64,000 nt of DNA from Anaerolineales bacterium (GCA_020060235.1 JAGVAO010000067.1:1257-65256), one strand, 5' to 3'; shown: positions 43,520 through 56,801, counted from the stretch's first letter. A program made the numbers and translations. Notes: generated by a model not told the origin, from the letters alone.

Positions 43520-43520
43520 T

Positions 43521-43597: not shown

Positions 43598-43600
43598 CTC

Positions 43601-44395
43601 TTACGGCAATCCCTTAAATCCCTGTTCGCGCCAGGTGCTGAAACGCTGCCAGCCGATGTCCGAGAGCATCAGGGTCATACCAAAGCCAATTAGAACGCAG
43701 GTGATGAAGAAAAAGGCCACTTCTTCGATGGGCAGGATGCCGAAGAAGTTGATGCCCAGCGTCTGGTCTTTGGAGATGTTCCAGGTGGTGGCGCTCAGGG
43801 CGACGATGTCGGTTAGCGAGAGATACAGTCCGGGGATAAAGATGGACGTAAAAACCACTTTGCGGTAATGCCACAAAATATCTGCCCCGAACAGGAATTG
43901 GGGAATGATGGGTGGCAGCGCCCAGAAGAAGATGATGCCCAGGTAGTTCCACTCATCACCGGCGAAGAAAAATTGGAAGGTAAAGAAGACCCAGGCGGCA
44001 ATGAGTATTCCGGTTGACAAGTAAACCAGTTTTGGGCTGCGCTGGAAGGTTTCAGGAGCGGGCAGTCTCAGCCGCCGAGCCAGGAACCACCACCACAAAC
44101 CAACCAAGATGGTTTCGACGATAAAGAACGTGTATTCTTCAATCGGAACATAGCCAATCGTAATGCCGGTGACCAGGTCCGGGTTGTAGTACCAGACGCC
44201 GGTGGCGACCAGGTAGTTGTCCCAGGGGGTGGTGTAAACCAACGCGATGAGAACATGCACGGCGATAATTAGCGGCACTTTTTTTGCGTCGAAACCGGGA
44301 GTGGGGCGTCCGGCGCGCTTGTCCAGCCAGGTGATGACCAGCAGGACAAGAATCGGGATGATGACGAAGTAAGCGAGAAAGGCGAAGTAGGTCAT
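43601..44395 (-). CDS. lycopene cyclase, fused CrtYc/CrtYd-type (two lycopene-cyclase domains)
   Basis: A duplicated membrane domain, each half carrying the PxEE motif (VPIEEYTFF and LPIEEVAFF). Confidence 0.75.
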   Translation of the reverse strand: MTYFAFLAYFVIIPILVLLVITWLDKRAGRPTPGFDAKKVPLIIAVHVLIALVYTTPWDNYLVATGVWYYNPDLVTGITIGYVPIEEYTFFIVETILVGLWWWFLARRLRLPAPETFQRSPKLVYLSTGILIAAWVFFTFQFFFAGDEWNYLGIIFFWALPPIIPQFLFGADILWHYRKVVFTSIFIPGLYLSLTDIVALSATTWNISKDQTLGINFFGILPIEEVAFFFITCVLIGFGMTLMLSDIGWQRFSTWREQGFKGLP

Positions 44396-45744
44396 GAGGA
44401 TTTTAGATTGGATGATAGGCGGCGGGTAATTTTCATCAACACACCCGGGCGCGGTTCAAGGGTTGCGCCCATATGCGGGTGGATGTTTTCTGTCAAAAGT
44501 TGAAAATCGAAAGTCCTTAAAAGCTGGCTGACCACAATCCGCGCTTCGGCCTGGCCAAAGGCGGCCCCGATGCAGGCGCGCGGCCCGCCGCCGAAGGGGA
44601 TGAAGCTCATCGGGGGCGTTGCTTGCCTCGTGCTTTTTTGCGAGGTGCGGGCTTGCGAGAATCGTTCAGGCTGGAACTGGTCTGGGTTTTCCCAGATGGT
44701 CGGGTCACGCTGGGTCAGGTAAATCGAGTAGAACATGCGCGAACCGGCCGGGATGGTTTTACCCTCGCCAAAAGCCACATCCTGCGCCGCGATGCGGTTG
44801 CCGATGTGGATGGGCGGATATAGGCGCAAGGTTTCCTTGATGACCTGGTCGAGCAGGGGCGGGGTCTGGCCGGGTTCGCTCGCGTCCAGTTCGCGGACGA
44901 GGCGGGCGTGGATGTCCGGGTGCTGGCCGAGCAGGGCGAAAACCCAGGCCAGCAGCGCGGTGGAAGTGTCGTGCCCGGCAATCAGCATGGTCAGCATTTG
45001 GTCACGAATGATTTTGTCGGTCAGGTTGGCGTCGATGAGGTGTTGAAGCAAATCGTTATTCGGGGCTTCGGTATTCGATGAATCGGCGTCCGAATATCGA
45101 ACATCGAATATCGCTTTTCGCCGTTCTGCAATGATTTCATACAGGTAGTCATCGAGGGCTTTCAGGCGTTTTTTATAACCAGGGCGCGGGATGCGCCGCC
45201 ATAAAATCCATGCGCCGGGGGAGATGTAGTCGATGGCTTTCAAGATGGGCGTCCAGATGCGCGGGATGTCGTCCCAGGCATCGCGGCTGAAGAGGGCCTG
45301 GATGATAATCAGCAGGGCGATTTTGCGGCCTTCGACGAGCATATCCACTACCTGCCCATCCTGCCAGGTTGCGCTGACCCGTTTGGTTTGCTGGCGCATC
45401 ATTTCGGCGTAGCCGGGCAACTTGCCTGGGTGCAGCGACGGTTCCATGAGTTTGCGGTAATGGTCGTGTTCCTCTCCATCGGTGACGAGCACGCCGCGGT
45501 CGAGCAGGTCTGTGACCGGGTCGTTGTTGCGCCACTGGAACTTGTCACGCTCGGTGACGAGTACCTTGCGGGCGGCTTCGGGGCCAAAGACGATGTAGGG
45601 CTTGAATCCCGGCAGAGGCACCTGGAAGAAGCGCCCGACCCGCTCGGCCATAACGCGCAGCGGCCCGAGCGGGGGTTTTTCTGCGAGAAAGGATTTCAGG
45701 ACGGCGAGGCCGAGTTGGGGGTCGGAGGATGTGTCAGGTTTCAT
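44392..45744 (-). CDS. cytochrome P450, probable carotenoid-modifying monooxygenase by context
   Basis: I-helix [14 protein letters not shown] (ExxR) and heme loop [10 protein letters not shown]. The stop overlaps the lycopene cyclase start. Confidence 0.85.
45051..45113 (+). repeat. CGAAT-unit repeat block, family D copy 2 (in-frame inside the P450 gene)
   Basis: 'aatcgttattcgg...ggtattcgatgaatcggcgtccgaatatcgaacatcgaatatcg' encodes ...[20 protein letters not shown].... Confidence 0.5.
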
Positions 45745-45759
45745 GTGTCAGGTGTCAGG
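45731..45759 (+). repeat. TGTCAGG-repeat element, family A copy 2 (spans the GNAT stop and the P450 start)
   Basis: 'gtgtcaggtttcatgtgtcaggtgtcagg'. On the minus strand it supplies the TGA of the GNAT gene, the 10-nt spacer, and ATG AAA CCT GAC AC of the P450. Confidence 0.8.
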
Positions 45760-46276
45760 CGAGGGTTTTGGTCAGGTAAAGCACCAGGTCGTCATCGACG
45801 GGGATGGATTGGCCGTACTGAACGGGCTGGCCGCGCGAGAACAGTCCGCGCCCGTCGGGGATGTAACCGCGTTTGGCGTACATGCGCTGGGCCGAGCCGT
45901 AGTCGGCGGTCATGCCGACGCCCAGGCCAACCACTGCGCTTCGGGCGGCAACCCGTTTTTCGGCTTCGTCCATCAGGGACTCGCCGATGCCCTGGCGGCG
46001 GAATTTGGGCAGGACGTTGAAATCGACAATTTCAGGGATGTTTTGCTCGCGGAAAGGCGGGTAGTGCGACTGCCAGCAGATGGTGACGTAACCAGCGAAG
46101 TCCAAAATCGGGAGATTTTGGACTCCAGAATGAGCGACCAGGACGACCCGCTGGCCTGCTTCCTGCTCCGCGAGATATTTCTCATACTGCGAGGCGGGTT
46201 TATCCCAGCCCAGTTCAGAAAAAGCAGCAGCGATGGAGTTAATGTCGGTGGGTTCGATGAGGCGAATGGTAGGCAT
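45755..46276 (-). CDS. GNAT-family N-acetyltransferase
   Basis: 173 aa with the acetyl-CoA motif FRRQGIGESLMDEAEKRV. Confidence 0.8.
   Translation of the reverse strand: MPTIRLIEPTDINSIAAAFSELGWDKPASQYEKYLAEQEAGQRVVLVAHSGVQNLPILDFAGYVTICWQSHYPPFREQNIPEIVDFNVLPKFRRQGIGESLMDEAEKRVAARSAVVGLGVGMTADYGSAQRMYAKRGYIPDGRGLFSRGQPVQYGQSIPVDDDLVLYLTKTLA
46097..46126 (+). repeat. palindromic element, family B copy 2 (in-frame inside the GNAT gene)
   Basis: 'gaagtccaaaatc'-ggga-'gattttggactcc' pairs at 12 of 13 positions. It encodes GVQNLPILDF. Confidence 0.75.
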
Positions 46277-46295
46277 GTCTTTTAAGGGTTGAAGG

Positions 46296-47747
46296 TCATT
46301 CGGGTTTTTGGCTTGTGGCTTTTGATGAATTGTAGGCTTTCAGCGTTCGTTCCCGCGCCTCGGCGCGGTCAACGATGGGTTGGGCCGGGTAGCCAGGGAC
46401 GCGGATGCCCTTTTCCCAGCAGGGGGCGTGGATTTCGGGGGTGGAGAGATGGGCGAGTTCGGGAACCCATTTGCGGATGTAGGCGCCGTCCGGGTCGAAT
46501 TTGGCCGATTGCAGCACCGGGTTGAAGATACGGAAGTAGGGCGCGGCATCGGTTCCGGTTCCAGCTGTCCACTGCCAGCCGCCGTTGTTGGCGGCCGGGT
46601 CGCCGTCGAGCAGGTTGTCCATAAACCAACGTTCGCCCCATTGCCAGTTAATCAGCAAATCCTTGACGAGAAAGGAGGCGACAATCATGCGCGCCCGGTT
46701 GTGCATCCAGCCGGTTTCGCGCAGTTGGCGCATGGCTGCGTCCACGACCGGGACGCCGGTGCGGCCTTCCTTCCAGGCGGCAAAATCGGCTTCATCGTCC
46801 CGCCAGGGGATGTTTTGCAGGGCCGGGTTGAATGCGCGCCTGGCAACGTGCGGGAAGTGGTAGAGGATAGATATGTAGAATTCGCGCCAGATGAGTTCGT
46901 TCAACCATCTTTGCGAGCCTTTTTCGTTGAACGTGTTCAACGCGGTTTCAGCCGCCTGGCGCATGGAAACCATGCCGAAGCGGATATAGGGCGAGAGGGC
47001 GGAAGTGCCGTCGAGGTCGAGGCGGTTGCGGGTTTCGTGGTAACTGGTAATTGGTGATTGAGCAAATTGAGCTAGGCGGCGTTGGGCTTCGGCTTCACCG
47101 GGAGGAAAATGGTCAACGGATGACAGCGGATGCGCGGAGTTGTCAACGGATAGGAACGGATGCACGGATTTTGCCAGCGGATGAAGGGGCGGATACTTCG
47201 GCAGGCTCGGTGCAAGTTGCGCGGATATCTCAACGGATGGGGGCAGGTTGATGGGGGGGAAATGTTCCGGAGCTGGGAGCGGGTTTAGGCTCGATGGGAG
47301 CAGGGATTTCCAGGTTTTCGCAAAAGGCGTGAAAACGGTGTACGGCTTGCCGTCTGGTTTGCGAACGGCTTCCGGGTGATGAACGGTCTGCCCGTGGACA
47401 AGGGTCAGCGGTAGGGATTGAATCAGTTGTTCGTCGCGGGCGCGGGCGTAGGGGGTGTAATCTTGCTCGGCAAAAATGGCCTGCGCGCCAGTTTCGATGA
47501 GCAGGTTGAGCAATTCAATCTCCGGTTTGCCGCGTCGAATGACCAGAGAAGAGCCGCGTTTTTGCAATTCCTGGTCGAGTTCGTCCAGGCCGCCAAAGAG
47601 GAAGGCTTGCCGCCGGGCGGGAGTGCGTTCGAGCAGGTGCGGGTCGAGGATAAAGACGGGGACCACCGCTCCCTGCTTGAGAGCGGCGCGCAAGGCCGGG
47701 TTATCCGAAAGGCGAAGGTCGCGGCGAATCCACCACAGGGAGGTCAT
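46296..47747 (-). CDS. phr: deoxyribodipyrimidine photolyase (cryptochrome/photolyase family)
   Basis: LWWIRRDLRLSDNPAL, WREFY, GWMHNRARMIVASFL, and W..G..D-type FAD-domain motifs. Confidence 0.9.
   Translation of the reverse strand: MTSLWWIRRDLRLSDNPALRAALKQGAVVPVFILDPHLLERTPARRQAFLFGGLDELDQELQKRGSSLVIRRGKPEIELLNLLIETGAQAIFAEQDYTPYARARDEQLIQSLPLTLVHGQTVHHPEAVRKPDGKPYTVFTPFAKTWKSLLPSSLNPLPAPEHFPPINLPPSVEISAQLAPSLPKYPPLHPLAKSVHPFLSVDNSAHPLSSVDHFPPGEAEAQRRLAQFAQSPITSYHETRNRLDLDGTSALSPYIRFGMVSMRQAAETALNTFNEKGSQRWLNELIWREFYISILYHFPHVARRAFNPALQNIPWRDDEADFAAWKEGRTGVPVVDAAMRQLRETGWMHNRARMIVASFLVKDLLINWQWGERWFMDNLLDGDPAANNGGWQWTAGTGTDAAPYFRIFNPVLQSAKFDPDGAYIRKWVPELAHLSTPEIHAPCWEKGIRVPGYPAQPIVDRAEARERTLKAYNSSKATSQKPE
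47112..47243 (+). repeat. 'caacggatg / gcggatgcgcgga' repeat block, family C copy 1 (in-frame in the photolyase inter-domain linker)
   Basis: 'gtcaacggatgacagcggatgcgcggagttgtcaacggataggaacggatgcacgg...' encodes ...HPLAKSVHPFLSVDNSAHPLSSVDH. Confidence 0.8.
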
Positions 47748-47767
47748 ATCTAAAAAGAAACCTCCCT

Positions 47768-48343
47768 TTATTCCAGTAGTTCCGGCAGGGTCGGTTCTGC
47801 AACCTGTTCAGGAAAGAGTTTGTGCATCACTGTAATCACTTTGTAGGCAAAGTTGGGGTCGAAGGTGTAAAAGCCCTCATACATGCGTGGTTCGTTGGGC
47901 AGGCGGTTTTCGGCGTTGATTTCTTCAGCCAGCAGGGTCATGTGAATGCCCGGCCCGTAGGCAATGACAAACCAGTAATGTTCGAGCGGCGTGCCAGAAG
48001 TGTCGATGGCCTGGGTGCGGACGAAATCAGGCAGGGGTACGTCAGGCACGCCATACATCCACAAACTTGTGGAGGCCTGGGCGACCCCTACGTAACGCTC
48101 TTGCTGTGCGGCAACCCGCGAGAAATACTGGAAGGAAACGTGGGTTTCCGATGCGCCCGGGCTGGCAATAATGGCGTCCTCTATCATGTGGCTGATTTCT
48201 ATCATGCCGTTCACGGTGAAGATGTAGCGAAAATTGACCCGTTGCAGGTCTTCGCGCGTGGCGCTTTTCAGGAAAGCCTCGGTGCGCGGCGGAAACAGCG
48301 GCATCAGTTTGCCAAAAAAGTTGTGCAGAATATCTTTTTCCAT
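47768..48343 (-). CDS. stand-alone DICT-domain protein
   Basis: 191 aa collinear with the N-terminal domain of the neighbouring cyclase (...HVSFQYFSRVAAQQERY...WMYGVPD...HYWFVIAYGPGIHMTLLAEEI). Confidence 0.55.
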   Translation of the reverse strand: MEKDILHNFFGKLMPLFPPRTEAFLKSATREDLQRVNFRYIFTVNGMIEISHMIEDAIIASPGASETHVSFQYFSRVAAQQERYVGVAQASTSLWMYGVPDVPLPDFVRTQAIDTSGTPLEHYWFVIAYGPGIHMTLLAEEINAENRLPNEPRMYEGFYTFDPNFAYKVITVMHKLFPEQVAEPTLPELLE

Positions 48344-48348
48344 TTGTC

Positions 48349-49707
48349 TTACTCCTTGGTCGCTGGTATTGCCGGCGCTTTTGCGCGGCTTTCGTTTTCC
48401 CCGCCGATGAAGTCTTCAAGGGCTTCGAACTCGGCGCTGTACATTCGCTGGTAGCCTTTGCCTTTGACCTGCACGTCGCGGCCCAGGCAGCGGATGGGGC
48501 GGTTGAGGGCGCGGTAGGTGGCTTCATCAATACCCAGCCCATTGGACGGGGCCAGGGCCTGCAAGCGGCTGGCCATGTTGACCGCGTCGCCAATAATGGT
48601 GATTTCGCGGCGCGAAGCCGAGCCAAGGCGGGTAATGATGCACTCGCCGCTGGCAATGCCGATGCGGGTGTTGAACTGCAGGCCCAGGTGGGCGATTTGC
48701 TGATTATTGAAGCGCGACAGGCGGCGCTGCATTTCGGCGGCAGCGCTGACTGCATCGTTTGAACTGTTGAAGAATGCCATCAGGCCATCACCCAGGAATT
48801 TGTCGATGTCGCCATTGTGTTCGTAGATGACCGTCGTCAGCAGGTTGAAGTAACGATTGAGCGTTTTGGTCAATTCGAGCGAATCGCCGCGCTCGAAAAG
48901 CGGGGTAAAGTTTTCAATATCGGTAAACAGGATGGTCAGTTTACGGCGTTCCGGTTGGAAAGGCTCTTCAGGCGGGCTGTCGAGCATTTGCTGGCTGTCG
49001 TCCCAGGCGCGGCGTGAGACCATCGTGCGCACAATTTCTTCCATGCGCTCCAGCGCGTTGGTGCGTTCGGCCAGGTTGTTGTAAAGAGCCGATAACTGGC
49101 TTTGGGTGCGGTCCATATAACCGGCGAATTGGTTCAGGTAAGTGTTGACAGGTTGAACCGGGTCGAGCGGGGCGGGGACAAAAGGCGGTTCGGGCAGGCC
49201 AATCGCCTGGTGCAGCAAGCGCGCCGCAGGCTGGACGATGTGGTCTTCGAGCGTGACCATGCCCTGGTAGAGCCGTCCGCGCCCAAAGCGGCTTTCGCGC
49301 AACGAGGCAGCCGAGGCACCGATTTCACGCGTCAGTAAGGCGACGCCAAAGCGCGGGTGGGCAAAGACAATAAACCATTCCTGTGTCAAGGGCGCGTCAG
49401 GGGCCAGGGACACATATTCCAGGTTGGGAATTTCCGGCACGGCGCTGTCGGCTTTGCCAAAGATATAGACTTTTTTACAGCGTGCCGCCAACTGGCGAAA
49501 ACGGTTGGCCTGCGGCAGGAAGGCCGAAAAACGCTGGAATCCGGCGAAGAAAATCGAATCCATGCCATGCCGCAAGACGGTTTCTTCGATGCTGTGGCTG
49601 ACGGCCAGCAAAGACGCCACAGACGAGGTGCGCGCGGCGTTTGCCCCTGCGGCGGCCTGGGTGGCATTAAGTGTATAGAGCGAGATGGCCTGGATATCTG
49701 GTTTCAC
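48349..49707 (-). CDS. class III adenylate/guanylate cyclase with an N-terminal DICT sensory domain
   Basis: Cyclase core LTILFTDIENFTPLFE...KFLGDGLMAFF...IGIASGECI...IGDAVNMASRLQ. N-terminal DICT-like region FFAGFQRFSAFLPQANRF...EWFIVFAHPRFGVALLTREI. Confidence 0.85.
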   Translation of the reverse strand: MKPDIQAISLYTLNATQAAAGANAARTSSVASLLAVSHSIEETVLRHGMDSIFFAGFQRFSAFLPQANRFRQLAARCKKVYIFGKADSAVPEIPNLEYVSLAPDAPLTQEWFIVFAHPRFGVALLTREIGASAASLRESRFGRGRLYQGMVTLEDHIVQPAARLLHQAIGLPEPPFVPAPLDPVQPVNTYLNQFAGYMDRTQSQLSALYNNLAERTNALERMEEIVRTMVSRRAWDDSQQMLDSPPEEPFQPERRKLTILFTDIENFTPLFERGDSLELTKTLNRYFNLLTTVIYEHNGDIDKFLGDGLMAFFNSSNDAVSAAAEMQRRLSRFNNQQIAHLGLQFNTRIGIASGECIITRLGSASRREITIIGDAVNMASRLQALAPSNGLGIDEATYRALNRPIRCLGRDVQVKGKGYQRMYSAEFEALEDFIGGENESRAKAPAIPATKE

Positions 49708-49718
49708 GGGACAGGTTC

Positions 49719-50930
49719 TCAGGATGCTGCGGCCATTGATTTGGCGCGGATTTCAGCCGCAATCGGGTTGCCGTAGATGACGCGCCAGACATACACGCTC
49801 AAGGCAACCAATAGGATACCGCTGAACAGGCCGGGGGCCCAGGTTCCGAGGCTGCCGAGCAGGGCGCCGCCCAGGGTGGGGGCGATGACCCGCGTCAGGC
49901 TTTCGATGGAGGCTGAAAGCCCCAAAATCCCGCCGACTTCCTGGGTCTGGACGGCCTTGGTCAGGGTGCTGGCGAGGACGGTGTTCAGGATTCCGCCCGC
50001 GATGGCGGTCGGCGTCAGGATGACCATCAGCCAAAAGACCGAGGGGACAATTGCCCAACCCAGCAGGGCTGCGGCCATGATGACAATCGAGACGGCAATC
50101 AGCAGGTCTTCACGGAAGCGTTGGGTCAGGCGGCCAATTAAGAATCCCTGCACAAAGACCGAGAGAACGCCAACGTAGGTGAGAATAAATCCTGTATTGC
50201 GGGCGTCGAGCTGGAATTTTTTCAGGGCGTATAAGGCGAAAATAGTCTGAAAAATAGCAAAGGCCAGGCCAAAGAAGAAACGGGTTATCAGCAGCGAGCC
50301 GCTGAATGGACGTTTGAGCGCTGCGCCGAGGGCCGAAAAGGTGAAACCAGGGCGTTTTTCGGGCATCGCGGCGCGCTTTTCTTCGGACAGCGATTCGGGA
50401 AGCCAGGCGGCCACCAAAATCAGGTTGATGGCCGACAGCCCGGCGGCGGCAAAGGAGGGCACATCGTAGCCCCACTGACTCAAAAACCCGCCAGTGACAG
50501 GGCCGATGATAAATCCCAGGCCGAAGGCGGCCCCGACCAGCCCCAGGCCTTTGGAGCGATTCTTCTCGTCGGTTACATCGGCGATGTAGGCCTGGGCCAC
50601 GCTCAGGTTGCCGCCCATGAAGCCGGAGAGCATGCGGCTGGCGAAGAGCATCCACAGGGCGTTGGCAAAGCCGAGCAGGAGAAAGCCGAGGAATGCGCCA
50701 AAAATGCTGATGAGCAGCATCGGGCGGCGGCCATAGCGGTCGGAAAGCCGCCCCAGCATTGGCGCGCCGATGAGCTGCATGGCGGCGTAGGATGCCACCA
50801 GCAGGCCGGTGGTGAACTCGTCTGCGCCAAAGGTATCCGCATAATAGGGCAGCAGTGGCAGAATCAGGCTGAAGCCGAGCAAGTCAACGAAGACGACGAA
50901 GATGACAGAGAACAGGCGTTTTTTATCCAT
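49719..50930 (-). CDS. MFS transporter (TetA-like drug:H+ antiporter family)
   Basis: 12-TM profile with motif A GRLSDRYGRRPML. Confidence 0.85.
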   Translation of the reverse strand: MDKKRLFSVIFVVFVDLLGFSLILPLLPYYADTFGADEFTTGLLVASYAAMQLIGAPMLGRLSDRYGRRPMLLISIFGAFLGFLLLGFANALWMLFASRMLSGFMGGNLSVAQAYIADVTDEKNRSKGLGLVGAAFGLGFIIGPVTGGFLSQWGYDVPSFAAAGLSAINLILVAAWLPESLSEEKRAAMPEKRPGFTFSALGAALKRPFSGSLLITRFFFGLAFAIFQTIFALYALKKFQLDARNTGFILTYVGVLSVFVQGFLIGRLTQRFREDLLIAVSIVIMAAALLGWAIVPSVFWLMVILTPTAIAGGILNTVLASTLTKAVQTQEVGGILGLSASIESLTRVIAPTLGGALLGSLGTWAPGLFSGILLVALSVYVWRVIYGNPIAAEIRAKSMAAAS

Positions 50931-51405
50931 GAAGTTTTTCTTGATTGAATTCTCTTAAAACAGCCAGGATTTCATCGTTGGCGGGAATGTCAGATGCATC
51001 GTGTCCATAATGCACGAAGCGTACAATGCCCTGTTTGTCAATCGTCACCTGGGCGGGCATGCGCCCGAATTTGAAAATCTTGACTTGCTGACCGTACAGT
51101 TTTAAGACCGTATGTTCAGGGTCAGGCAGGCCGATGAAAGGCAGGTCGTGCTTTTGCCAGTATTCTGCAAAGGCTTTGGCGTCTTCGGGACCAAGCACCA
51201 GCACGACGGTGTCTTCGGCGATAAATTTTTCAGAGTCCTGGCGCAACTGCGCCAAATGCCGTTGGCAAAATGGTCAGAAAAGGCCGCGGTTGAAAACGAG
51301 CAGGACGTTGTTCCGGTCTTTGAAATCAGACAGGTTGATTTTCTGACCGTTGAAATCGGGCAGGCTGAAATCGGGCGCGGGTTGGTTGAGTTCTACGCGG
51401 CTCAT
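50923..51405 (-). CDS. peroxiredoxin-like (AhpC/TSA, PRX_like2) thiol oxidoreductase with in-frame TGA: probable selenoprotein (UxxC)
   Basis: ORFs 51274..51489 and 50923..51255 share one frame and are separated only by TGA 51274-51276. Read-through gives LVFNRGLF-U-PFCQRHLAQLRQD, which places Sec at the first Cys of the family's CxxC. A hairpin follows (see the next feature). Confidence 0.6.
51238..51255 (-). promoter_or_regulatory. candidate bacterial SECIS hairpin
   Basis: In the mRNA, 5'-UUGGCGC-AGUU-GCGCCAG-3' forms a 7-bp stem with a GU-containing tetraloop. The stem begins 18 nt after the UGA and the loop is about 25 nt from it. Confidence 0.45.
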
Positions 51406-51406
51406 C

Positions 51407-51733
51407 TCAGGCCCTGTTGCCCATGAAGAATTTTTGCGGATTGCCCTGGCTGGCGCGCAAGGCCAGGAAGGCGTACAGGCTGATGGCAAATGCGCCCAGA
51501 GTCATGACGGCGAGAATCCACAAGGCCGTTACCGGGATGGATTTTTCACGGTAGACAATCCAGGCCGAGAACAGGGTGAATCCGACGTACAGGTCCACAA
51601 GCGAGACGATTCCCCAGGGCAGGGAGGTAAGGATTGCGCCCTCGGCGGCGAAATCGCCCGCGATGAAGGCATAGCCGATGACGGCGGTCATCGCCAGCAC
51701 GCCCAAAATGGTGAGAATTTTTGCAACGTTCAT
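51407..51733 (-). CDS. small integral membrane protein (DUF1475-like)
   Basis: 108 aa with 3-4 TM helices and the motif LPWGIVSLVDLYVGFTLFSAWIVYRE. Its stop lies 1 nt before the next start codon. Confidence 0.55.
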   Translation of the reverse strand: MNVAKILTILGVLAMTAVIGYAFIAGDFAAEGAILTSLPWGIVSLVDLYVGFTLFSAWIVYREKSIPVTALWILAVMTLGAFAISLYAFLALRASQGNPQKFFMGNRA

Positions 51734-51742
51734 TGTGTATTC

Positions 51743-52579
51743 CTATTTCTTGCTGATACAGGCAAACCCCAGGGCGCCGACGCCAAGATGCGCGCCCAGC
51801 ACCGGGGTAATTTGCAGGACGGGTACATCGTTTCCCGGCCAATAAGCGCGGACGCTTTCGCGCAGGGCTTCGGCTTCTTCTTGAATCCCAGCGTGCAGGA
51901 TGGCGAGTTGCTCGAACGGCGCGTATTGTTCCAACCATTCCATCAGCAGGGCGGTGGCGTTTTTCTGGGTGCGCGTGCGATGAACAACCGGCTTGCCCTG
52001 GTTCATGTGCAGGACGGGTTTGATTTTGAGAAATTCGCCGATATGCGCTACGGCGGAGTGCATTCGTCCGCTGCGGCGCAGGTATTCGAGGGTTTTTAGC
52101 GAGGCAAAGACATAACTGCGCTCCATCTGCTCCTTGAGCGCGGATAAAATCTCTTCGATGGATTGACCGGCGGTCGCCAGTTGGGCGGCTTTTTCGACCA
52201 GGTAGCCCGTCCCCAGGCTGAGTTGCGTCGAATCCAGCACGGTCACCGGGATGCGGGCAAATTGTTGGGCGGCGATTCGCGCCTCGTTGACGGTGGCGCT
52301 CAGGCTCTCGGAGATGTGAATCGAGAGAATGGCCTTTGCCCCCTGGTCGGCCAGACGCTGGTAGAGTTGCTCAAAACCGCCCGGGCCGGGAGATGCCGTT
52401 TTCGGGAAGGGGTTCAGCACAGGCAACTGGCGGTAGAACTCCTCGCGGCTGATGTCGATGCCGTCCTTGTAGGCTTGCTCGCCGACGTGGATGTTAAGCG
52501 GCAGGACGGTGATACCCAGTTTGCGAACGGTCTCTTCGGGCAGGTCGCAGGTGCTGTCGGTAACGATGTGGATGCTCAT
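51743..52579 (-). CDS. DegV family fatty-acid-binding protein
   Basis: MSIHIVTDSTCDLPEE... with a DegV-type fold signature throughout. Confidence 0.85.
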   Translation of the reverse strand: MSIHIVTDSTCDLPEETVRKLGITVLPLNIHVGEQAYKDGIDISREEFYRQLPVLNPFPKTASPGPGGFEQLYQRLADQGAKAILSIHISESLSATVNEARIAAQQFARIPVTVLDSTQLSLGTGYLVEKAAQLATAGQSIEEILSALKEQMERSYVFASLKTLEYLRRSGRMHSAVAHIGEFLKIKPVLHMNQGKPVVHRTRTQKNATALLMEWLEQYAPFEQLAILHAGIQEEAEALRESVRAYWPGNDVPVLQITPVLGAHLGVGALGFACISKK

Positions 52580-52609
52580 GGGTGTCCCTCTCTTATATGG
52601 ATGGCAAAA

Positions 52610-53932
52610 TCAGGATGTGAATTTGCCAGCAGATGCCTGTTCAAGCCAGTTGCTTATCAGACGGCCATGTTCTGGCATGTGGTGTTCCACTGCGTCGGCG
52701 TAAACTTTCAGGTAGCCTGCGACAGCCTCGGGCGGGATGTGGTGAACTTTGATGAGCGTTTCGAGCCAATCCAACTCGGTGTCGATGAAGTTCAGGTCGC
52801 CCAACTGCAGGGCGGCGGCAATATTGTCGCCCAGGAAGATGTTGGCGCTGGCGAAATGTTCGGGTTTGATGCCGAAGGGCTGTAATCCCTCATTGACGCT
52901 ATTCTCTACCAGAGGGCGTTTAACGATAAACGCCTTCAGAGTTTCCAAATGTTTATTTGACGGCAACCCAGGCCGGGGGGCGTCTGCCCGCGTGACCAGC
53001 AGCGATTCGATACGTTCGATGCCGTCTTCCAGCGAGTCTCCCAGGTAATGACCGGGAATGCTTTCCTTTAAGCCCGGCTGGATGCTGAATATTCGTCCGC
53101 CGTAAACGACTGTTGCGCCGTGCGCCGAGAGCAGGCTGGCTGTTTGCTGAAGGTTGGCAGCGGTTCTGAGTTGCTGCGAAATTAGAACCACCAGGGTCGG
53201 TTGGATTGCCGTCAGGGTTTCCTCGAATCGGTCATGCGGCACGTTGGCACCCAGGTAAATTACATTCAATCCGCGGCGGCGCAAGAAGAGGGTCAGCAGC
53301 AGGCCGCCAAAGGTGTGCCACTCGTTTGGCGGACAGCCCACCAACAGGGTATGCGGACGGGTGGGGGTCGGCGCGGCGGCAATCAGGGCATCGAGGCGGC
53401 GCATGGCCAGTCCCGAAGCAAAGTGTTCCTGCTGCACGCTGGCGCGGTTTTCATACCAGAGCGTTCCAATTTCGGTCAGCCCGCGGGCCAGCAGTTCTGA
53501 GCAAACCACCTCGACCGGGTAAAGGCTAAAGGCCTGGTTGAGGGTTTGTTCGGCTGCGATTTCGTTGAAGTTCAGGCAGGCAGCCAGCCATTGCGAGCGC
53601 AGGGAATCGATGCCGGTTTCGGGCGGCAGGTATATGGCCTGCGGAATGCCGGGCGGGCGCACACCGGGCATGCTTTCGAGCGGGTCTTTGCCGTTGGCGC
53701 TTTGCTCGCGCCACATTTCGACAGCCCGTGAAATCGACAGCCCTTCGTTTTGGCGGGCCACGAGCCATTTAATCAGGGCAATGTCATGCTCCGAGTAAAG
53801 CCGGTGCCCGCCCGCTGTGCGCTGTGGCGACGGTATCCCGTAGCGGCGTTCCCAGGCGCGCAGGGTGTCGGCGTTCAGGCCGGTTTCTTTCAGCACCGCT
53901 TTCAGGTTGTAGACAGGGTTGGTATTTGGCAT
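52610..53932 (-). CDS. carH: MerR-family, B12-binding light-responsive regulator (CarH/LitR-like) with an extra C-terminal domain
   Basis: MerR HTH (YNLKAVLKETGLNADTLRAWERRYG), Wx9EH motif (LWYENRASVQQEHF), and B12 lower-ligand motif ExHxxG (NEWHTFG). About 135 additional C-terminal residues are of unknown family. Confidence 0.75.
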   Translation of the reverse strand: MPNTNPVYNLKAVLKETGLNADTLRAWERRYGIPSPQRTAGGHRLYSEHDIALIKWLVARQNEGLSISRAVEMWREQSANGKDPLESMPGVRPPGIPQAIYLPPETGIDSLRSQWLAACLNFNEIAAEQTLNQAFSLYPVEVVCSELLARGLTEIGTLWYENRASVQQEHFASGLAMRRLDALIAAAPTPTRPHTLLVGCPPNEWHTFGGLLLTLFLRRRGLNVIYLGANVPHDRFEETLTAIQPTLVVLISQQLRTAANLQQTASLLSAHGATVVYGGRIFSIQPGLKESIPGHYLGDSLEDGIERIESLLVTRADAPRPGLPSNKHLETLKAFIVKRPLVENSVNEGLQPFGIKPEHFASANIFLGDNIAAALQLGDLNFIDTELDWLETLIKVHHIPPEAVAGYLKVYADAVEHHMPEHGRLISNWLEQASAGKFTS

Positions 53933-54043
53933 GGCAGTAAGAACTTCTTTCCGAATTGGTTAGGCAGGCAACACGCGGTTTGCCGCAAGGCTGGCACTGC
54001 CGACTTGATGTTAATTAAAGCACGCAATGCTCAAATTGCCAAA

Positions 54044-55576
54044 TCAATCGCCAGCAGCCGGCGAAAGTTTCAGGTTGGCCACCTTGGCCGGGGGCATCTC
54101 TTTCAGGATGCGCTGGGCAGTCAGTTTGGCTGAGAGCAGCACAATCGGCAGGCCGGTGCCAGGGTGGGTCGAAGCCCCCGCAAAATACAGGTTTTTGAAC
54201 TGCGCGTGGCGGTTCTGCGGGCGCAGGAAACCAACCTGCCAGAAGTTGTGGCTCAGGCCAAATGCCGCGCCTTTTTCGAGATTGAACTGCTGTTTCCACT
54301 CTTTTGGTGTGTAGGCAATCTCGAATTTTATGTGCTCTTTCAGGTCGCTAATGCCCATTTCTTTTTCGAGCCGGGCAAAAACCGTTTCGCGGGCGCGGTT
54401 GACCATCGCGTCCCAATCTTGCTGGTTGCTTTCGTCCATGTGGCCAACCGGCACGAGCACATACAGGGTTTCCTGCCCTTCGGGGGCCGCCGCCGGGTCG
54501 GTGCGCGCCGGCGCGTGAACGTAAAACGAAGGCTGTTCGGGTAGGCTGTGGTCGTTGAAAATCTGGTCGAACGAAGCCTTGTAATCGCCGCCCAAAAACA
54601 CATTGTGGTGGGCTATCTCGGGGTAGGACTTGTCCACGCCCCAGTAGAACATAATCGTCGAGCAGGTGTACAACTTCTTGTCCAGTTTTTCCGCTTCGGC
54701 ATTTTTGGGCAGCAGTTCTTTGTAGATGTACGGCAGGTCGGCGTTGCCCACGAAAAGGTCGGCCTCGTAGCGCAGGCCGTCTTCCGTTTCGACGCTCTGG
54801 ACGCGACTCCCCTCAGCCTGGATAGCCTTTACCGGGGCATTGTACACAAACCGGACGCCCAGTTTTTCGGCCACCCCGGTCAAGGCTTCGATGCCCGCAT
54901 ACATCCCGCCGATTGGATACCAGACCCCCTCGGCCAGTTCGGTGTACTGGAGCAGGGAGTAGGTGGCCGGGGCGTCGTAGGGGCTGAGTCCCAGGTACAT
55001 ATTCTGGAAGGTGAACGCCGCCTTGAGCCTTTCATCCTTAAAGAAGCGGCTGGTGTTGCGATAGTGCTTGTCGAGCGCCTTGAGCTGGAAGATGAGCGGC
55101 AGGTTGCTCAGGCTGAAATACTCGAAGATGTTGTAGAAATTGCGCCCGACGAACTTCTCAACCGAAATCTTGTAATGCTTTGCGCCTTCTGCAATATAAC
55201 CCAGGAAACCCGTAAAAGCAGTTTTCTCCACTTTTTCGAGTTGCTTCTGCATTTTCCCAATGTCCGAAGTCAGTTCGATTTGCAGCCCGTCATCAAAGTG
55301 GACTTTGTACGTCGGGTCGATGCGCCGCAGGTCAAGGTGGTCGCTCATCTTCTCGCCCAGCGAGGCGAAAGTTTCCTCCCAAATTTCAGGCATCAGGAAC
55401 AGGGTCGGGCCAATGTCGAAGCGGTGACCGTCGCGGACGATTTGATTGCAGCGTCCGCCGGGTTTGTCATTCTTTTCGAGCACGGTGACATCGAATCCGT
55501 TTTTTGCCAGGCGGGCGGCGGTGGCAATTCCGCCGATGCCGGCGCCGATAACGATTGCGGCAGGTTTAGTAGACAC
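54044..55576 (-). CDS. crtI: phytoene desaturase
   Basis: FAD motif AAIVIGAGIGGIATAARLAKNGFDVTVLEKNDKPGGR and C-terminal FAGASTHPGTGLP. The GTG start at 55576 has AAGGAG 8 nt upstream. The track ORF extends to 55660. Confidence 0.9.
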   Translation of the reverse strand: MSTKPAAIVIGAGIGGIATAARLAKNGFDVTVLEKNDKPGGRCNQIVRDGHRFDIGPTLFLMPEIWEETFASLGEKMSDHLDLRRIDPTYKVHFDDGLQIELTSDIGKMQKQLEKVEKTAFTGFLGYIAEGAKHYKISVEKFVGRNFYNIFEYFSLSNLPLIFQLKALDKHYRNTSRFFKDERLKAAFTFQNMYLGLSPYDAPATYSLLQYTELAEGVWYPIGGMYAGIEALTGVAEKLGVRFVYNAPVKAIQAEGSRVQSVETEDGLRYEADLFVGNADLPYIYKELLPKNAEAEKLDKKLYTCSTIMFYWGVDKSYPEIAHHNVFLGGDYKASFDQIFNDHSLPEQPSFYVHAPARTDPAAAPEGQETLYVLVPVGHMDESNQQDWDAMVNRARETVFARLEKEMGISDLKEHIKFEIAYTPKEWKQQFNLEKGAAFGLSHNFWQVGFLRPQNRHAQFKNLYFAGASTHPGTGLPIVLLSAKLTAQRILKEMPPAKVANLKLSPAAGD

Positions 55577-55642
55577 GGGATGAACTCCTTGGTGAGAATT
55601 TACTTGGGTGAATGGTGGCGTTTTTTTGCTAACGATGCCCGT

Positions 55643-55670
55643 AGTATAACACTTGTCCATGTTTTGTCAA
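55643..55670 (-). promoter_or_regulatory. promoter of the crtI-led minus-strand array
   Basis: On the minus strand: TTGACA (55670-55665), a 16-nt spacer, then TATACT (55648-55643). Confidence 0.55.
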
Positions 55671-55688
55671 GCAATTTTGCGAAAAACC

Positions 55689-55761: not shown

Positions 55762-56709
55762 ATGCACGCACACTGGGAACGCAATCTGCTCAACCTGGCC
55801 GGGAACATCCCGCACCCGTCCACACGCCCCATTTTCTCGTACTGGGCTGGCGACGCCTCGCTCGAAGACGCTTACCAGCTCTGCGCCCGAATTGCCGCCG
55901 AACACTCGAAATCTTTTTATATGGCATCGGGCCTGTTGCCCGAAGAAAAGCGCTCTGCCGCCCGCGCGTTGTATGCCTTTTGTCGTGTTGTAGATGATAT
56001 TGTGGATGAAGGTTCTGTGGTGGGGCGGGAAGTCGAACTTGACTACTGGCGCGGCGTTGTGCAGGGGCTTATCCACCCTCGCGCCGACGACCTGGTAGCC
56101 CAGGCCTGGGCCGATACCCGCTCCCGTTATCATATTCCCCCGCGTTATGCCCTGCAACTGATTGACGGCGTTTCGCGCGACCTGACCCAGACCCGTTATA
56201 AAACCTTCGACGACCTGGCGACCTATTGTTATGGCGTTGCCTCGACCGTCGGGTTGATGAGCATGTATATTGTCGGCTTCAAATCCAACGAGGCGCTGCC
56301 GTATGCCATTAAGTTGGGCGTAGCCCTGCAAATGACCAACATCCTGCGCGATGTCGGCGAAGATTTCCGCAATGGCCGCATTTATCTGCCGAAAGATGAG
56401 TTGAAAGCCTTTGGCATCAGCGAAGCCGACCTGGCGCGCGGCATTGTCAACGACGCCTGGCGCAATTTCATGCGCTTCCAAATCGACCGCACGCGTAAAC
56501 TCTATGCCGAAGCCGAGAAGGGCATTGCCTTCCTCGAGCGCGACGGCCAGATGGCAATTGGGGCCTCGTCCAATTTTTATCAGGGCATCCTGGATGTCAT
56601 CGAGGCCAGCGATTACGATGTGTTTTCCAAACGTGCCAGTCTCACCGCCTGGGGCAAGGTTAGCCGCATCCCTGCGTTGTGGTTCAAACTTGCCACGCTG
56701 TCTCAATAG
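55762..56709 (+). CDS. crtB: phytoene synthase
   Basis: SKSFYMASGLLPEEKRSAARALYAFCRVVDDIVD, YCYGVASTVGLM and NILRDVGED. Confidence 0.9.
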   Translation: MHAHWERNLLNLAGNIPHPSTRPIFSYWAGDASLEDAYQLCARIAAEHSKSFYMASGLLPEEKRSAARALYAFCRVVDDIVDEGSVVGREVELDYWRGVVQGLIHPRADDLVAQAWADTRSRYHIPPRYALQLIDGVSRDLTQTRYKTFDDLATYCYGVASTVGLMSMYIVGFKSNEALPYAIKLGVALQMTNILRDVGEDFRNGRIYLPKDELKAFGISEADLARGIVNDAWRNFMRFQIDRTRKLYAEAEKGIAFLERDGQMAIGASSNFYQGILDVIEASDYDVFSKRASLTAWGKVSRIPALWFKLATLSQ

Positions 56710-56763
56710 TTCGAGTCTGCGTACAGGTGATTCTCCTTTGGGTGAAGGGTGCAAGCCCTTCAG

Positions 56764-56801
56764 CAAGCCCCCCGTCGGGCAACGGGGGGCTTGTCTTTTT
56801 T
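56764..56801 (+). terminator. rho-independent terminator after crtB
   Basis: 'aagcccccc'-gtcgggcaac-'ggggggctt' stem followed by GTCTTTTTT. Confidence 0.75.

What the first reader, a model, noticed from the sequence alone, without database searches (positions are those of the whole stretch)
43601..55576. 12-gene, roughly 12-kb co-directional array linking carotenoid synthesis, a B12 photoreceptor, photolyase, cAMP signalling and a Sec-peroxiredoxin
From the crtI promoter the minus strand carries these genes in order: crtI, the CarH-like regulator, DegV, a DUF1475-like membrane protein, the Sec-Prx, MFS, the DICT-cyclase, the DICT protein, photolyase, GNAT, P450 and lycopene cyclase. The consecutive intergenic distances are 111, 30, 9, 1, -8, 11, 5, 20, 19, 10 and -4 nt, so gaps are small throughout apart from the 111 nt after crtI. 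I found no intrinsic terminator inside the array. Functionally it reads as one light / photo-oxidative-stress regulon. It contains pigment synthesis (crtI, cyclase, P450), DNA repair (photolyase), peroxide detoxification (Prx), a light sensor/repressor (CarH-like) and a second-messenger branch (DICT-cyclase). Embedding a cyclase, a DICT protein, DegV and an MFS pump in a carotenoid operon is not a standard arrangement.
Basis: partly seen in the sequence, partly recalled or inferred. Interest (0 to 1): 0.65.

Follow-up and report, generated by a model that had tools for sequence, protein, structure and literature searches.

The report
B12-photoreceptor-controlled light-protection operon in Anaerolineae
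A 12-gene string for pigments, DNA photorepair, peroxide removal and cAMP signalling sits behind a promoter carrying the binding-site pattern of the vitamin-B12 light-sensing repressor encoded inside it, and versions of the string recur across Anaerolineae bacteria, so it is most likely a real light-protection unit of a known general kind with new components.

Summary

The 185-bp crtB/crtI spacer holds two back-to-back near-consensus promoters. Each is overlapped by phased 11-bp TnnACA repeats, the published CarH operator pattern. This pattern occurs nowhere else in the 64 kb and is conserved in relatives.

The "CarH-like" regulator is a MerR protein carrying a photocobilin-type module: B12-binding domains plus a C-terminal globin-like domain. 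It keeps the Wx9EH and ExHxxG signatures.

Versions of the array recur in many Anaerolineae genomes and metagenomic contigs. The common order is crtB / crtI, regulator, DegV and DUF membrane genes, Sec-Prx, MFS, DICT, photolyase, P450 and lycopene cyclase. For DegV, MFS, DICT and the peroxiredoxin this is therefore the usual arrangement in the lineage. The DICT-adenylyl cyclase is the rarer addition.

The best reading is a light-derepressed photoprotection operon that includes its own repressor gene. A single 12-kb transcript and a light response remain unproven.

I rate it a new variant of a known kind, with moderate interest. The main open question is what DICT and the cyclase do.

The parts
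55642..55674 (-). PcrtI promoter with overlapping CarH-type operator. The -35 TTGACA is at 55670-55665 and the extended -10 TGtTATACT ends at 55643. The phased 11-bp repeats are TTGCTTGACAA / AACATGGACAA / GTGTTATACTA (two full TnnACA repeats plus one pseudo-repeat).
   Evidence: Promoter scan, 11/12 match. Motif search finds it at only 2 sites in 64 kb. Conserved in relatives. The repeat definition comes from PMC9304148.
55685..55717 (+). PcrtB promoter with overlapping CarH-type operator. The -35 TTGACA is at 55689-55694 and the -10 TAAAAT at 55711-55716. The repeats are AACCTTGACAA / AAATTGAACAA / TCCGTAAAATA.
55762..56709 (+). crtB (phytoene synthase), divergent from crtI and monocistronic.
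   Evidence: SQS_PSY, E 2.9e-81. The divergent crtB/crtI pairing is conserved in relatives.
56763..56794 (+). Strong intrinsic terminator after crtB (13-bp stem, 9 G-C pairs, T-run).
54044..55576 (-). crtI (phytoene desaturase). The GTG start follows AAGGAG. The longer ATG at 55660 lies between the -35 and -10 elements and is unlikely to be used.
   Evidence: crtI_fam 516.8 bits, cut-off 238.
52610..53932 (-). Light-sensing repressor candidate: MerR HTH + B12-binding four-helix bundle (W159-x9-E169-H170) + Rossmann B12 domain (E204-x-H206-xx-G) + C-terminal five-helix globin-like ('photoglobin') domain.
51743..52579 (-). DegV-family (FakB-like) fatty-acid-binding protein.
   Evidence: It lies next to the regulator in 12 of 22 related loci.
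51407..51733 (-). Small membrane protein with a partial DUF1475 match.
   Evidence: Present in 11 of 22 related loci.
50923..51405 (-). Peroxiredoxin-like selenoprotein with a U-P-F-C redox motif. The in-frame TGA is at 51276-51274 and the SECIS-like hairpin UGGCGC-AGUU-GCGCCA at 51254-51239.
   Evidence: TGA and hairpin present in 11 of 11 orthologues.
49719..50930 (-). MFS transporter (DHA-type, distantly Tet-like, below all resistance-family cut-offs). Its start overlaps the Prx stop by 8 nt.
48349..49707 (-). DICT sensor domain + coiled linker + class III (IIIb-type) adenylyl cyclase domain, with all six catalytic residues present.
47768..48343 (-). Stand-alone DICT protein (191 aa), highly conserved across Anaerolineae.
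46296..47747 (-). Class I CPD photolyase-family flavoprotein.
45755..46276 (-). GNAT acetyltransferase.
44392..45744 (-). Cytochrome P450. Its nearest solved relatives are carotenoid/retinoid hydroxylases, so it is a probable carotenoid hydroxylase.
43601..44395 (-). Fused two-domain (CrtYc/Yd-type) lycopene cyclase. Its start overlaps the P450 stop by 4 nt.
   Evidence: two CarR_dom_SF stretches.

Best explanation
This is a light-derepressed photoprotection unit of the CarH/LitR kind, in an Anaerolineae (Chloroflexota) genome.

Inferred mechanism in the dark: the regulator encoded by the second gene, loaded with adenosylcobalamin, oligomerises and binds phased 11-bp TnnACA repeats. These repeats overlap the -35 to -10 regions of two back-to-back promoters, so both crtB and the crtI-led string are shut off.

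Inferred mechanism in the light: photolysis of the Co-C bond breaks up the oligomer and both promoters fire. Because the repressor gene lies inside the string, the system is negatively autoregulated and can reset.

Inferred roles of the products:
- CrtB, CrtI, the lycopene cyclase and the P450 make cyclic, probably hydroxylated, carotenoids.
- The photolyase repairs UV lesions.
- The Sec-peroxiredoxin removes peroxides.
- DegV, the small membrane protein and the MFS transporter serve membrane-lipid maintenance or export.
- The DICT-adenylyl cyclase with the DICT protein adds a cAMP output whose input signal is unknown.

Shown directly by sequence and comparison: the genes, the gaps, the promoters, the operator pattern, the regulator's architecture and signature residues, and the conserved synteny.

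Inferred: operator binding, the light response, transcription as one unit, and the individual enzyme roles.
For: Control region:
- Two 11/12-match sigma-70 promoters lie back to back in the crtB/crtI spacer.
- TTGACAA-N4-T-NN-ACAA occurs only at these two places in 64 kb, against 0.38 expected.
- The pattern fits the CarH operator definition quoted in PMC9304148: tandem 11-bp nnnnTnnACAn repeats that include the -35 element.
- In 15 of 18 related crtB/crtI or crtB/regulator spacers, three phased repeats score at least 10 of 12. Only 2.3% of same-length random windows from the same loci do.
- Across 13 whole related loci, sites scoring at least 11 fall only in crtB/crtI spacers or the DegV/regulator spacer.
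- The consensus is cTTGACAAAnnaTAGACAAnnnGTAnAnT.

Regulator:
- It matches TtCarH over the DNA-binding and B12 domains (E 5e-29) and photocobilins over residues 114-419.
- The AlphaFold2 model (pLDDT 87.6) has 8J2W and 8J2Y as its top Foldseek hits (TM 0.81-0.83).
- W159, E169, H170 and H206 align to the AdoCbl-binding Trp, Glu-His and His of the photocobilin SasPcob (8J2W).

Synteny:
- The whole array is kept in L001, L002 and L004, partly in L005, L008 and L009, and in L060, L061, L062, L142 and L143.
- In L079 and L081 the DegV module is flipped but still shares the operator-bearing spacer with the regulator gene.

Operon signals and precedent:
- Gaps are at most 30 nt apart from one of 111 nt, there are two start/stop overlaps, and no convincing internal terminator.
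- In Thermus, LitR controls crt, phrB and a CRP-family regulator (PMC5401885). In Pseudomonas, LitR regulons include a photolyase, an SDR and lipid-modifying enzymes (PMC9758184).
Against: - There are no transcript data, so a single 12-kb mRNA is not demonstrated.
- The 111-nt crtI/regulator spacer holds a weak TTGGCA-17-TTTAAT promoter-like sequence and a weak hairpin over the crtI stop codon. Neither is conserved.
- In L060 an opposite-strand gene separates DICT from the photolyase gene, and no operator-like site precedes that gene. The distal genes can therefore be expressed independently in some relatives.
- The regulator scores below NCBIfam's CarH equivalog cut-off (145.7 against 400).
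- The background for the operator statistic is mostly coding DNA, which is less AT-rich than spacers, so the enrichment is overstated.
- No B12 synthesis or uptake genes and no cAMP receptor are present in the window.
Confidence: 0.68

Rival explanations
1. The array is a mosaic of several transcription units. Only crtB and crtI (perhaps also the regulator gene) are under the B12 photoreceptor. The downstream modules (DegV to MFS, DICT-cyclase/DICT, photolyase-GNAT, P450-cyclase) are driven by internal promoters that need not respond to light. They cluster because of shared function or history, not shared transcription.
For: Modules are gained, lost and reordered among relatives. In L060 an opposite-strand gene lies ahead of the photolyase gene, and no operator-like site precedes it. 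The window has a 111-nt gap with a promoter-like TTGGCA-17-TTTAAT. The operator motif occurs only once per locus.
Against: Eleven junctions are at most 30 nt and two overlap. No convincing internal promoter or terminator was found. The modules stay attached to the regulator gene across genomes whose regulators are only about 45-55% identical to the window's. When the DegV module is inverted, it stays on the operator-bearing spacer. The crtI/regulator spacer is not conserved, which argues against a dedicated promoter there.
Confidence: 0.2
2. The array is primarily a carotenoid and membrane-lipid biosynthetic operon. In this reading DegV, GNAT, MFS and the P450 tailor or export carotenoid derivatives. 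The B12-binding regulator reports cobalamin or redox status rather than light, and the cyclase is a passenger.
For: The carotenoid genes bracket the array. The P450's nearest solved relatives are carotenoid hydroxylases. DegV proteins bind fatty acids (NCBIfam FakB1-like). A GT2 glycosyltransferase gene lies immediately downstream in the window and in relatives.
Against: The regulator keeps the Wx9EH and His-ligand signatures that the cited papers tie to light-responsive B12 domains. A photolyase and a peroxiredoxin are not biosynthetic. The DICT/photolyase pairing persists where the crt genes are absent (L007, L009, L021, L023, L144).
Confidence: 0.08
3. The co-directional clustering is a chance run of unrelated genes with no shared regulation.
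For: Long same-strand gene runs are common in bacterial genomes.
Against: The same gene families recur next to the regulator gene in independent genomes and metagenomes. The operator pattern is conserved.
Confidence: 0.02

Closest known systems
CarH / class I LitR light-inducible carotenoid clusters (Thermus thermophilus, Myxococcus xanthus, Bacillus megaterium, Streptomyces)
   Same: The repressor has a MerR-type HTH plus an AdoCbl-binding module with Wx9EH and a His lower ligand. The operator is made of tandem 11-bp TnnACA repeats covering the -35 element. The repressor gene is embedded in or next to the crt genes, and a crtB promoter is among the targets. In Thermus the regulon also includes a photolyase, a P450 carotenoid hydroxylase and a CRP-family regulator (PMC9304148, PMC5401885).
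   Different: The regulator carries an extra C-terminal globin-like domain and scores below the CarH equivalog cut-off. The operon is much longer and includes DegV, a selenoprotein peroxiredoxin, an MFS transporter, DICT and a DICT-adenylyl cyclase. The host is an Anaerolineae bacterium, a group for which the paper searches run here found no described light regulon.
Photocobilins (SasPcob 8J2W/8J2X, AbDPcob 8J2Y; Zhang et al. 2024, PMC10979010) and the 'photoglobin' family (Schneider et al. 2022, PMC8717448)
   Same: B12-binding_2 + B12-binding + C-terminal five-helix globin-like domain, and the best structural match of the model (TM 0.81-0.83). The Trp that contacts the corrin (Trp296) is conserved here as W389. 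A MerR-HTH + B12 + photoglobin architecture is listed by Schneider et al.
   Different: The characterised photocobilins are stand-alone proteins or fusions to a diguanylate cyclase, not DNA-binding proteins. The biliverdin-binding Asp270 is not clearly conserved here, because the alignment in that stretch is unreliable and places a Phe there. No operator or regulon was described for the MerR form in the two papers read here.
Sensor-coupled class III adenylyl cyclases (CyaB of P. aeruginosa, Cya2, bPAC/OaPAC, phytochrome-cyclase fusions)
   Same: The catalytic domain has both metal-binding Asp residues, the Lys/Thr substrate pair (class IIIb type) and the Asn/Arg transition-state pair. An N-terminal sensor is joined to it through a helical linker.
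   Different: The sensor is a DICT domain, for which no ligand, chromophore or structure is known. The gene sits inside a photoreceptor-controlled operon next to a second, stand-alone DICT protein.
Singlet-oxygen / light stress regulons (class II LitR regulon of Pseudomonas; SAK1-dependent genes of Chlamydomonas)
   Same: The gene families overlap: photolyase, SDR, Rieske protein, DUF1295, peroxidase and efflux transporters (PMC9758184, PMC4067076). Several of these (DUF1295, SDR, Rieske) occur in relatives' versions of the array.
   Different: The regulators differ, and DUF1295, SDR and Rieske genes are absent from this window's version.

Membership tests
CarH / class I LitR (AdoCbl photoreceptor repressor) | N-terminal MerR-type winged HTH | tested here: met
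   MerR_1 E 3.3e-13. Residues 5-79 align to the TtCarH DNA-binding domain.
CarH / class I LitR (AdoCbl photoreceptor repressor) | Four-helix bundle with W-x9-E-H, and a Rossmann domain with E/D-x-H-x-x-G (His lower ligand) | tested here: met
   LW159YENRASVQQE169H170 and E204WH206TFG. These align to Trp61, Glu71-His72 and His108 of SasPcob and to the equivalent TtCarH residues. All are invariant in 32 homologues.
CarH / class I LitR (AdoCbl photoreceptor repressor) | Operator of tandem 11-bp nnnnTnnACAn repeats overlapping the promoter | tested here: met
   Two full repeats plus one pseudo-repeat on each of the two promoters. Conserved in relatives. Actual binding was not tested.
CarH / class I LitR (AdoCbl photoreceptor repressor) | Score above the curated family threshold (NCBIfam TransRegCarH equivalog) | tested here: not met
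   145.7 bits against a cut-off of 400. The protein is about 150 residues longer than CarH.
CarH / class I LitR (AdoCbl photoreceptor repressor) | AdoCbl-dependent oligomerisation and DNA binding in the dark, lost on illumination | not testable with these tools
   Needs purified protein, EMSA or footprinting, and SEC-MALS with and without light.
Photocobilin / photoglobin-coupled B12 photoreceptor | C-terminal five-helix globin-like domain packed against the B12 domains | tested here: met
   The AlphaFold2 model has helices at 301-436. Foldseek's top hits are 8J2W and 8J2Y, with 327-345 aligned columns and TM 0.81-0.83. phmmer aligns residues 114-419.
Photocobilin / photoglobin-coupled B12 photoreceptor | Biliverdin-binding residues (Asp270; Trp296 contacting the corrin and the bilin D ring) | tested here: inconclusive
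   Trp296 corresponds to W389, which is invariant. Asp270 falls in a low-confidence stretch of the alignment, opposite F/LGD. The C-terminal domain alone finds nothing in the PDB by sequence.
Photocobilin / photoglobin-coupled B12 photoreceptor | Simultaneous binding of cobalamin and a bilin, with a red-light response | not testable with these tools
   Needs spectroscopy on purified protein.
Class III adenylyl cyclase | Two metal-binding Asp residues, substrate-specifying Lys + Asp/Thr, and transition-state Asn and Arg | tested here: met
   D263, D307, K303, T370, N377 and R381 align to CyaB and Cya2. All are invariant or nearly so in 25 orthologues.
Bacterial selenoprotein (Prx-like, UxxC) | Conserved in-frame UGA at the redox position, followed by a SECIS-like hairpin | tested here: met
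   TGA in 11 of 11 orthologues, with the invariant UGGCGCAGUUGCG(C/U)CA starting 19 nt after the TGA (loop about 26 nt after it). Folding energy alone is not significant (z = -0.53).
Bacterial selenoprotein (Prx-like, UxxC) | selA/selB/selC/selD present in the genome | not testable with these tools
   No tRNA gene in the window. The rest of the genome was not available.
Operon (single transcription unit) | Short or overlapping junctions, no internal terminator, one upstream promoter | tested here: met
   This is sequence-level evidence only.
Operon (single transcription unit) | One transcript spanning all junctions | not testable with these tools
   Needs RT-PCR or long-read RNA sequencing.

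The most novel reading that the evidence does not exclude
DICT is the long-sought receiver that couples a photoreceptor to second-messenger output. In this reading the stand-alone DICT protein and the DICT domain of the cyclase read the state of a partner photoreceptor, or a photoproduct released on illumination. The partner would be either the B12/globin regulator or the adjacent photolyase-family flavoprotein. Light would then gate cAMP synthesis in these non-phototrophic Chloroflexota. That would give a two-tier light response (transcriptional derepression plus cAMP) and a first function for the DICT domain.
Probability: 0.18. Interest if true: 0.8.

Novelty: new variant of a known kind. 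Interest (0 to 1): 0.57.

Why it matters
B12-based light sensing is known from a few model bacteria, and photocobilins have so far been characterised as isolated proteins. This locus offers a natural DNA-binding photocobilin-type regulator together with its probable operator and a defined set of probable target genes. That makes its biology directly testable and could supply a new optogenetic repressor/operator pair.

The locus also places the uncharacterised DICT domain, a DICT-adenylyl cyclase and a selenoprotein peroxiredoxin inside a conserved light-protection unit. This gives the first concrete experimental handle on DICT function. It also suggests that Anaerolineae, usually thought of as dark-dwelling fermenters, invest in an elaborate light and photo-oxidative defence.

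Tried and rejected
- Rfam scan of the whole window: no hit, so no cobalamin riboswitch or known SECIS family.
- tRNA scan: none found, so no tRNA-Sec nearby.
- Search for further operator copies inside the array or elsewhere in the window: none within 2 mismatches.
- Alignment of the crtI/regulator spacer across relatives: no conserved element, so I did not call an internal promoter or attenuator there.
- 3' end of the array: no canonical terminator, and the fold is not significant.
- The regulator's C-terminal domain alone against PDB sequences: nothing. Homology to photocobilins is visible only in the full-length alignment and at fold level.
- DICT against PDB sequences: nothing.
- DICT model against PDB folds: only weak resemblance (TM 0.45-0.57) to PLD-like and TrmB sugar-binding-domain folds. 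I do not treat this as a family assignment.
- Distant DICT-cyclase loci (identity to the window's cyclase 45% or less): neighbours are mostly unrelated housekeeping genes.
- A cyanobacterial DICT-GAF locus (L036): no B12 or light genes nearby.
- The MFS transporter's resemblance to Tet efflux pumps is far below all curated cut-offs, so it is not called a resistance gene.
- No cNMP-binding or CRP gene in the window.
- Paper searches found no description of this array or of a DICT-cyclase.

Full report
**Observation.** They also reproduce all eleven junction lengths: 111, 30, 9, 1, -8, 11, 5, 20, 19, 10 and -4 nt.

Pfam and NCBIfam confirm the gene identities:
- CrtI-family desaturase
- MerR + B12-binding_2 + B12-binding regulator
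- DegV
- a small membrane protein with a partial DUF1475 match
- an AhpC/TSA-Redoxin protein interrupted by one in-frame TGA
- an MFS transporter
- DICT + class III cyclase
- a stand-alone DICT protein
- a class I photolyase-family protein
- a GNAT acetyltransferase
- a P450
- a two-domain lycopene cyclase

The longest crtI ORF starts at ATG 55660, but that codon lies between the -35 and -10 elements of the promoter.

It is divergent from crtI and is followed by the only strong intrinsic terminator in the region (56763-56794). Terminator-like hits inside the array are weak and no more frequent than in shuffled sequence (21 against 19.8 expected). The array's own 3' end also has no canonical terminator, so the lack of internal terminators counts for little.

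**Control region.** The 185-bp crtB/crtI spacer holds two 11-of-12 sigma-70 promoter matches, back to back:
- On the minus strand, TTGACA (55670), 16 nt, TG-n-TATACT (ends 55643).
- On the plus strand, TTGACA (55689), 16 nt, TAAAAT (ends 55716).

Each -35 element sits inside TTGACAA-N4-T-NN-ACAA. That is two tandem 11-bp units of the form nnnnTnnACAn, followed by a third, degenerate unit over the -10 element. The units are:
- TTGCTTGACAA / AACATGGACAA / GTGTTATACTA at 55674-55642
- AACCTTGACAA / AAATTGAACAA / TCCGTAAAATA at 55685-55717

This matches the operator architecture reported for CarH proteins: tandem 11-bp direct repeats 5'-nnnnTnnACAn-3', three or four per operator, one of which contains the -35 element (PMC9304148). 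With up to two mismatches the 18-nt pattern occurs only at these two places in the 64-kb window, against 0.38 expected.

**Conservation of the control region.** I scored three phased TnnACA units (maximum 12) in 18 related crtB/crtI or crtB/regulator spacers. Fifteen score at least 10 and nine score 11. Among same-length random windows from the same loci, 2.3% reach 10 and 0.8% reach 11. That background is mostly coding DNA, so the contrast is somewhat inflated.

In 13 complete related loci, sites scoring at least 11 occur only in crtB/crtI spacers, or in L081 in the spacer between a flipped DegV module and the regulator gene. L079 shows the same two-promoter layout there at score 10. Alignments anchored on the -35 element give the consensus cTTGACAAAnnaTAGACAAnnnGTAnAnT on the crtI/regulator side, and a conserved ACAAAACCTTGACAAA on the other side.

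The crtI/regulator spacer (111 nt here) varies in length and sequence among relatives. I therefore do not call a conserved internal promoter or attenuator there.

**Regulator.** The 440-residue protein matches Thermus CarH over its DNA-binding and B12 domains (E about 5e-29). It is roughly 150 residues longer than CarH and falls below NCBIfam's CarH equivalog cut-off (145.7 against 400 bits).

phmmer also aligns residues 114-419 to the photocobilins 8J2W, 8J2X and 8J2Y (E about 5e-19). An AlphaFold2 model built on 32 homologues (pLDDT 87.6) has those photocobilins as its top Foldseek hits, with TM 0.81-0.83 over 327-345 columns. This is better than its match to CarH.

The protein is therefore a MerR HTH fused to a photocobilin-type module: B12 four-helix bundle, Rossmann domain and a C-terminal five-helix globin-like 'photoglobin' domain. 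Schneider et al. list this architecture computationally (PMC8717448). Photocobilins have been shown to bind AdoCbl and biliverdin (PMC10979010).

The AdoCbl signatures are present and invariant in the family: W159-x9-E169-H170 and E204-x-H206-x-x-G. The corrin-contacting Trp296 of SasPcob corresponds to the invariant W389. The biliverdin-binding Asp270 falls in an unreliable stretch of the alignment, so bilin binding is undecided. More than a hundred 90%-identity clusters of about 440-residue homologues at 53% identity or more exist. Those that carry a source name are labelled Anaerolineae, Anaerolineales or Chloroflexota.

**Synteny.** Full-length orthologues of the DICT-cyclase are found almost only in MAGs labelled Anaerolineae or Chloroflexota. 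I mapped the window's proteins onto the retrieved loci by tblastn.

- L001, L002 and L004 (cyclase 77-83% identical) keep the whole array and the same downstream flank (GT2, AI-2E). They carry one or two extra genes: a 348-residue membrane protein after the regulator gene in all three, and an SDR in L001 and L002. In L004 only 26% of crtI is matched.
- L005 (58%) keeps crtB / crtI, regulator, MFS, DICT-cyclase, DICT, photolyase, P450 and lycopene cyclase.
- L008 and L009 (about 55%) keep regulator, DegV, DUF1475, DUF3159 and DUF1295 ahead of the DICT-cyclase. L009 adds Rieske, SDR and MFS before the cyclase and a photolyase gene after it. Neither has crt genes.
- L007, L021 and L023 (41-56%) keep only the cyclase-photolyase pair.
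- Most of the remaining loci, at 45% identity or less, have unrelated neighbours.

Starting instead from the regulator or from the DICT protein gives the same picture. L060, L061, L062, L142 and L143 each carry most of the series crtB / crtI, regulator, (DICT), DegV, DUF1295, DUF1475, DUF3159, Sec-Prx, SDR, (Rieske), MFS, (DICT-cyclase), DICT, photolyase, GNAT or abhydrolase, P450 and lycopene cyclase.

Among 22 loci with at least 4 kb downstream of a full-length regulator gene, the counts are: photolyase 14, DegV 12, DUF1475 11, MFS 11, Sec-Prx 8, DICT 8. Seven of these loci were selected through the cyclase, so the DICT and cyclase counts are biased upward.

The array is thus a modular unit that recurs across the lineage. 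The window carries a compact version plus the less common DICT-cyclase.

One counter-example matters for the operon claim. In L060 an opposite-strand solute-binding-protein gene lies between DICT and the photolyase gene, and no operator-like site precedes the photolyase gene.

**Individual components.**

*Sec-peroxiredoxin.* The peroxiredoxin-like gene has TGA at the first position of a U-P-F-C motif in all 11 orthologues examined. The TGA is followed 19 nt later by the invariant hairpin UGGCGC-AGUU-GCG(C/U)CA, whose only substitution preserves pairing as G-U. This fits a selenoprotein with a SECIS-like element. Folding energy alone is not significant, and no Sec machinery is visible in the window.

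*Cyclase.* The cyclase domain aligns best to Cya2, CyaB and the photoactivated cyclases. It has both metal-binding Asp residues, Lys303 and Thr370 (the class IIIb adenylyl pattern, from my own knowledge of the family), Asn377 and Arg381. All are conserved in 25 orthologues.

*DICT.* The stand-alone DICT protein is among the most conserved proteins of the array. The 120 best of 209 matching clusters are 59-99% identical, and it is 89% identical in L001, where the regulator is 75% identical. It is only 24% identical to the cyclase's own DICT domain.

Its AlphaFold2 model (pLDDT 89) gives only weak matches to PLD-like and TrmB sugar-binding-domain folds (TM 0.45-0.57). No chromophore-binding fold is evident.

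[quoted passage not shown] It also lists DICT among the domains annotated in a similarity network of light-responsive cobalamin-binding proteins (PMC11796333).

*P450 and lycopene cyclase.* The P450's nearest solved relatives include the carotene hydroxylases CYP97A3 and CYP97C1, the retinoid hydroxylase CYP120A1 and the Thermus enzyme CYP175A1. The lycopene cyclase has two CarR-type domains.

**Mechanism.** The best-supported model is a CarH-type switch. Its steps are inferred, except where the evidence above shows them directly.
- In the dark, AdoCbl-loaded regulator oligomers occupy both repeat sets and block both promoters.
- In the light, photolysis releases the regulator. crtB is transcribed as a terminated monocistron, and the crtI-led string is transcribed through short or overlapping junctions.
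- The repressor gene is the second gene in the string, which gives negative autoregulation.
- The products cover pigment synthesis, CPD repair, peroxide removal, membrane-lipid handling or export, and a cAMP branch.

The closest experimentally supported precedent is Thermus. There LitR/CarH controls its own gene and a CRP-family activator, which in turn switches on crt and phrB (PMC5401885). Here a cyclase rather than a CRP-family protein is embedded, and no cNMP-binding protein is encoded in the window.

**What remains open.**
- Whether a single transcript covers all 12 genes.
- Whether the globin-like domain binds a bilin.
- What DICT senses.
- What reads the cAMP.

DICT, in either form, persistently sits next to the photolyase gene, even where nothing else of the array survives (L007, L021, L023, L144). 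One reading this allows is that DICT receives input from a partner photoreceptor: the B12 regulator or the photolyase-family flavoprotein. I rate that as possible but unproven.

**Verdict.** The light-regulon interpretation is supported at the level of sequence and comparative genomics, with corrections: crtB belongs to the unit, the regulator is photocobilin-type, and the arrangement is typical for the lineage. The locus is a new variant of the known CarH/LitR light-inducible cluster. The paper searches run here found no description of this array or of a DICT-cyclase.

Noticed in passing
window 50923-51405 (TGA at 51276-51274; hairpin 51254-51239): The peroxiredoxin-like gene is a probable selenoprotein. 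The in-frame TGA in a U-P-F-C motif and an invariant downstream hairpin (UGGCGC-AGUU-GCGCCA) are conserved in all 11 orthologues found in related arrays. NCBIfam's nearest model is 'SelL-related redox protein', below its cut-off.
   Followed up: partly
window 55706-55722: A perfect 7-bp inverted repeat, ATCCGTA-AAA-TACGGAT, spans the -10 element of the crtB promoter. It is only partly conserved in relatives. It could be a second regulator site or a 5' RNA hairpin.
   Followed up: no
window 43520-43600: The 81-nt spacer between the convergent lycopene cyclase and GT2 genes is AT-rich and built from repeated (G)TATTCGA-like units. It has no canonical terminator.
   Followed up: partly
window 9209-17566: A REC-GGDEF response regulator gene is immediately followed by a 2481-residue histidine kinase with about ten GAF domains, a PAS domain, HisKA and HATPase_c. 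This is an unusually large multi-GAF sensor.
   Followed up: no
window 57302-58402 and 61199-63250: ORFs of 366 and 683 residues have no Pfam match.
   Followed up: no
L001 5138-6184 (also L002, L003, L004, L005, L059, L081, L097): A roughly 350-residue multi-pass membrane protein with no Pfam match lies directly after the regulator gene in many relatives. It is absent from the window.
   Followed up: partly
L144 9001-14589: In one Anaerolineales MAG, a DICT-photolyase pair lies about 3 kb from a heliorhodopsin gene. This echoes a remark in PMC8612252 about a DICT gene near a heliorhodopsin gene.
   Followed up: no
L004 2391-4203: In this close relative only 26% of crtI is matched, and about 1.8 kb of unrelated sequence lies between crtB and the crtI remnant. 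This may be an insertion or an assembly problem.
   Followed up: no
window 40140-43519; L059, L142: The flank PALP, AI-2E transporter, GT2 is conserved next to the array in relatives. In L059 the regulator, membrane-protein and DegV genes abut PALP and AI-2E directly, as if the rest of the array were missing there.
   Followed up: partly
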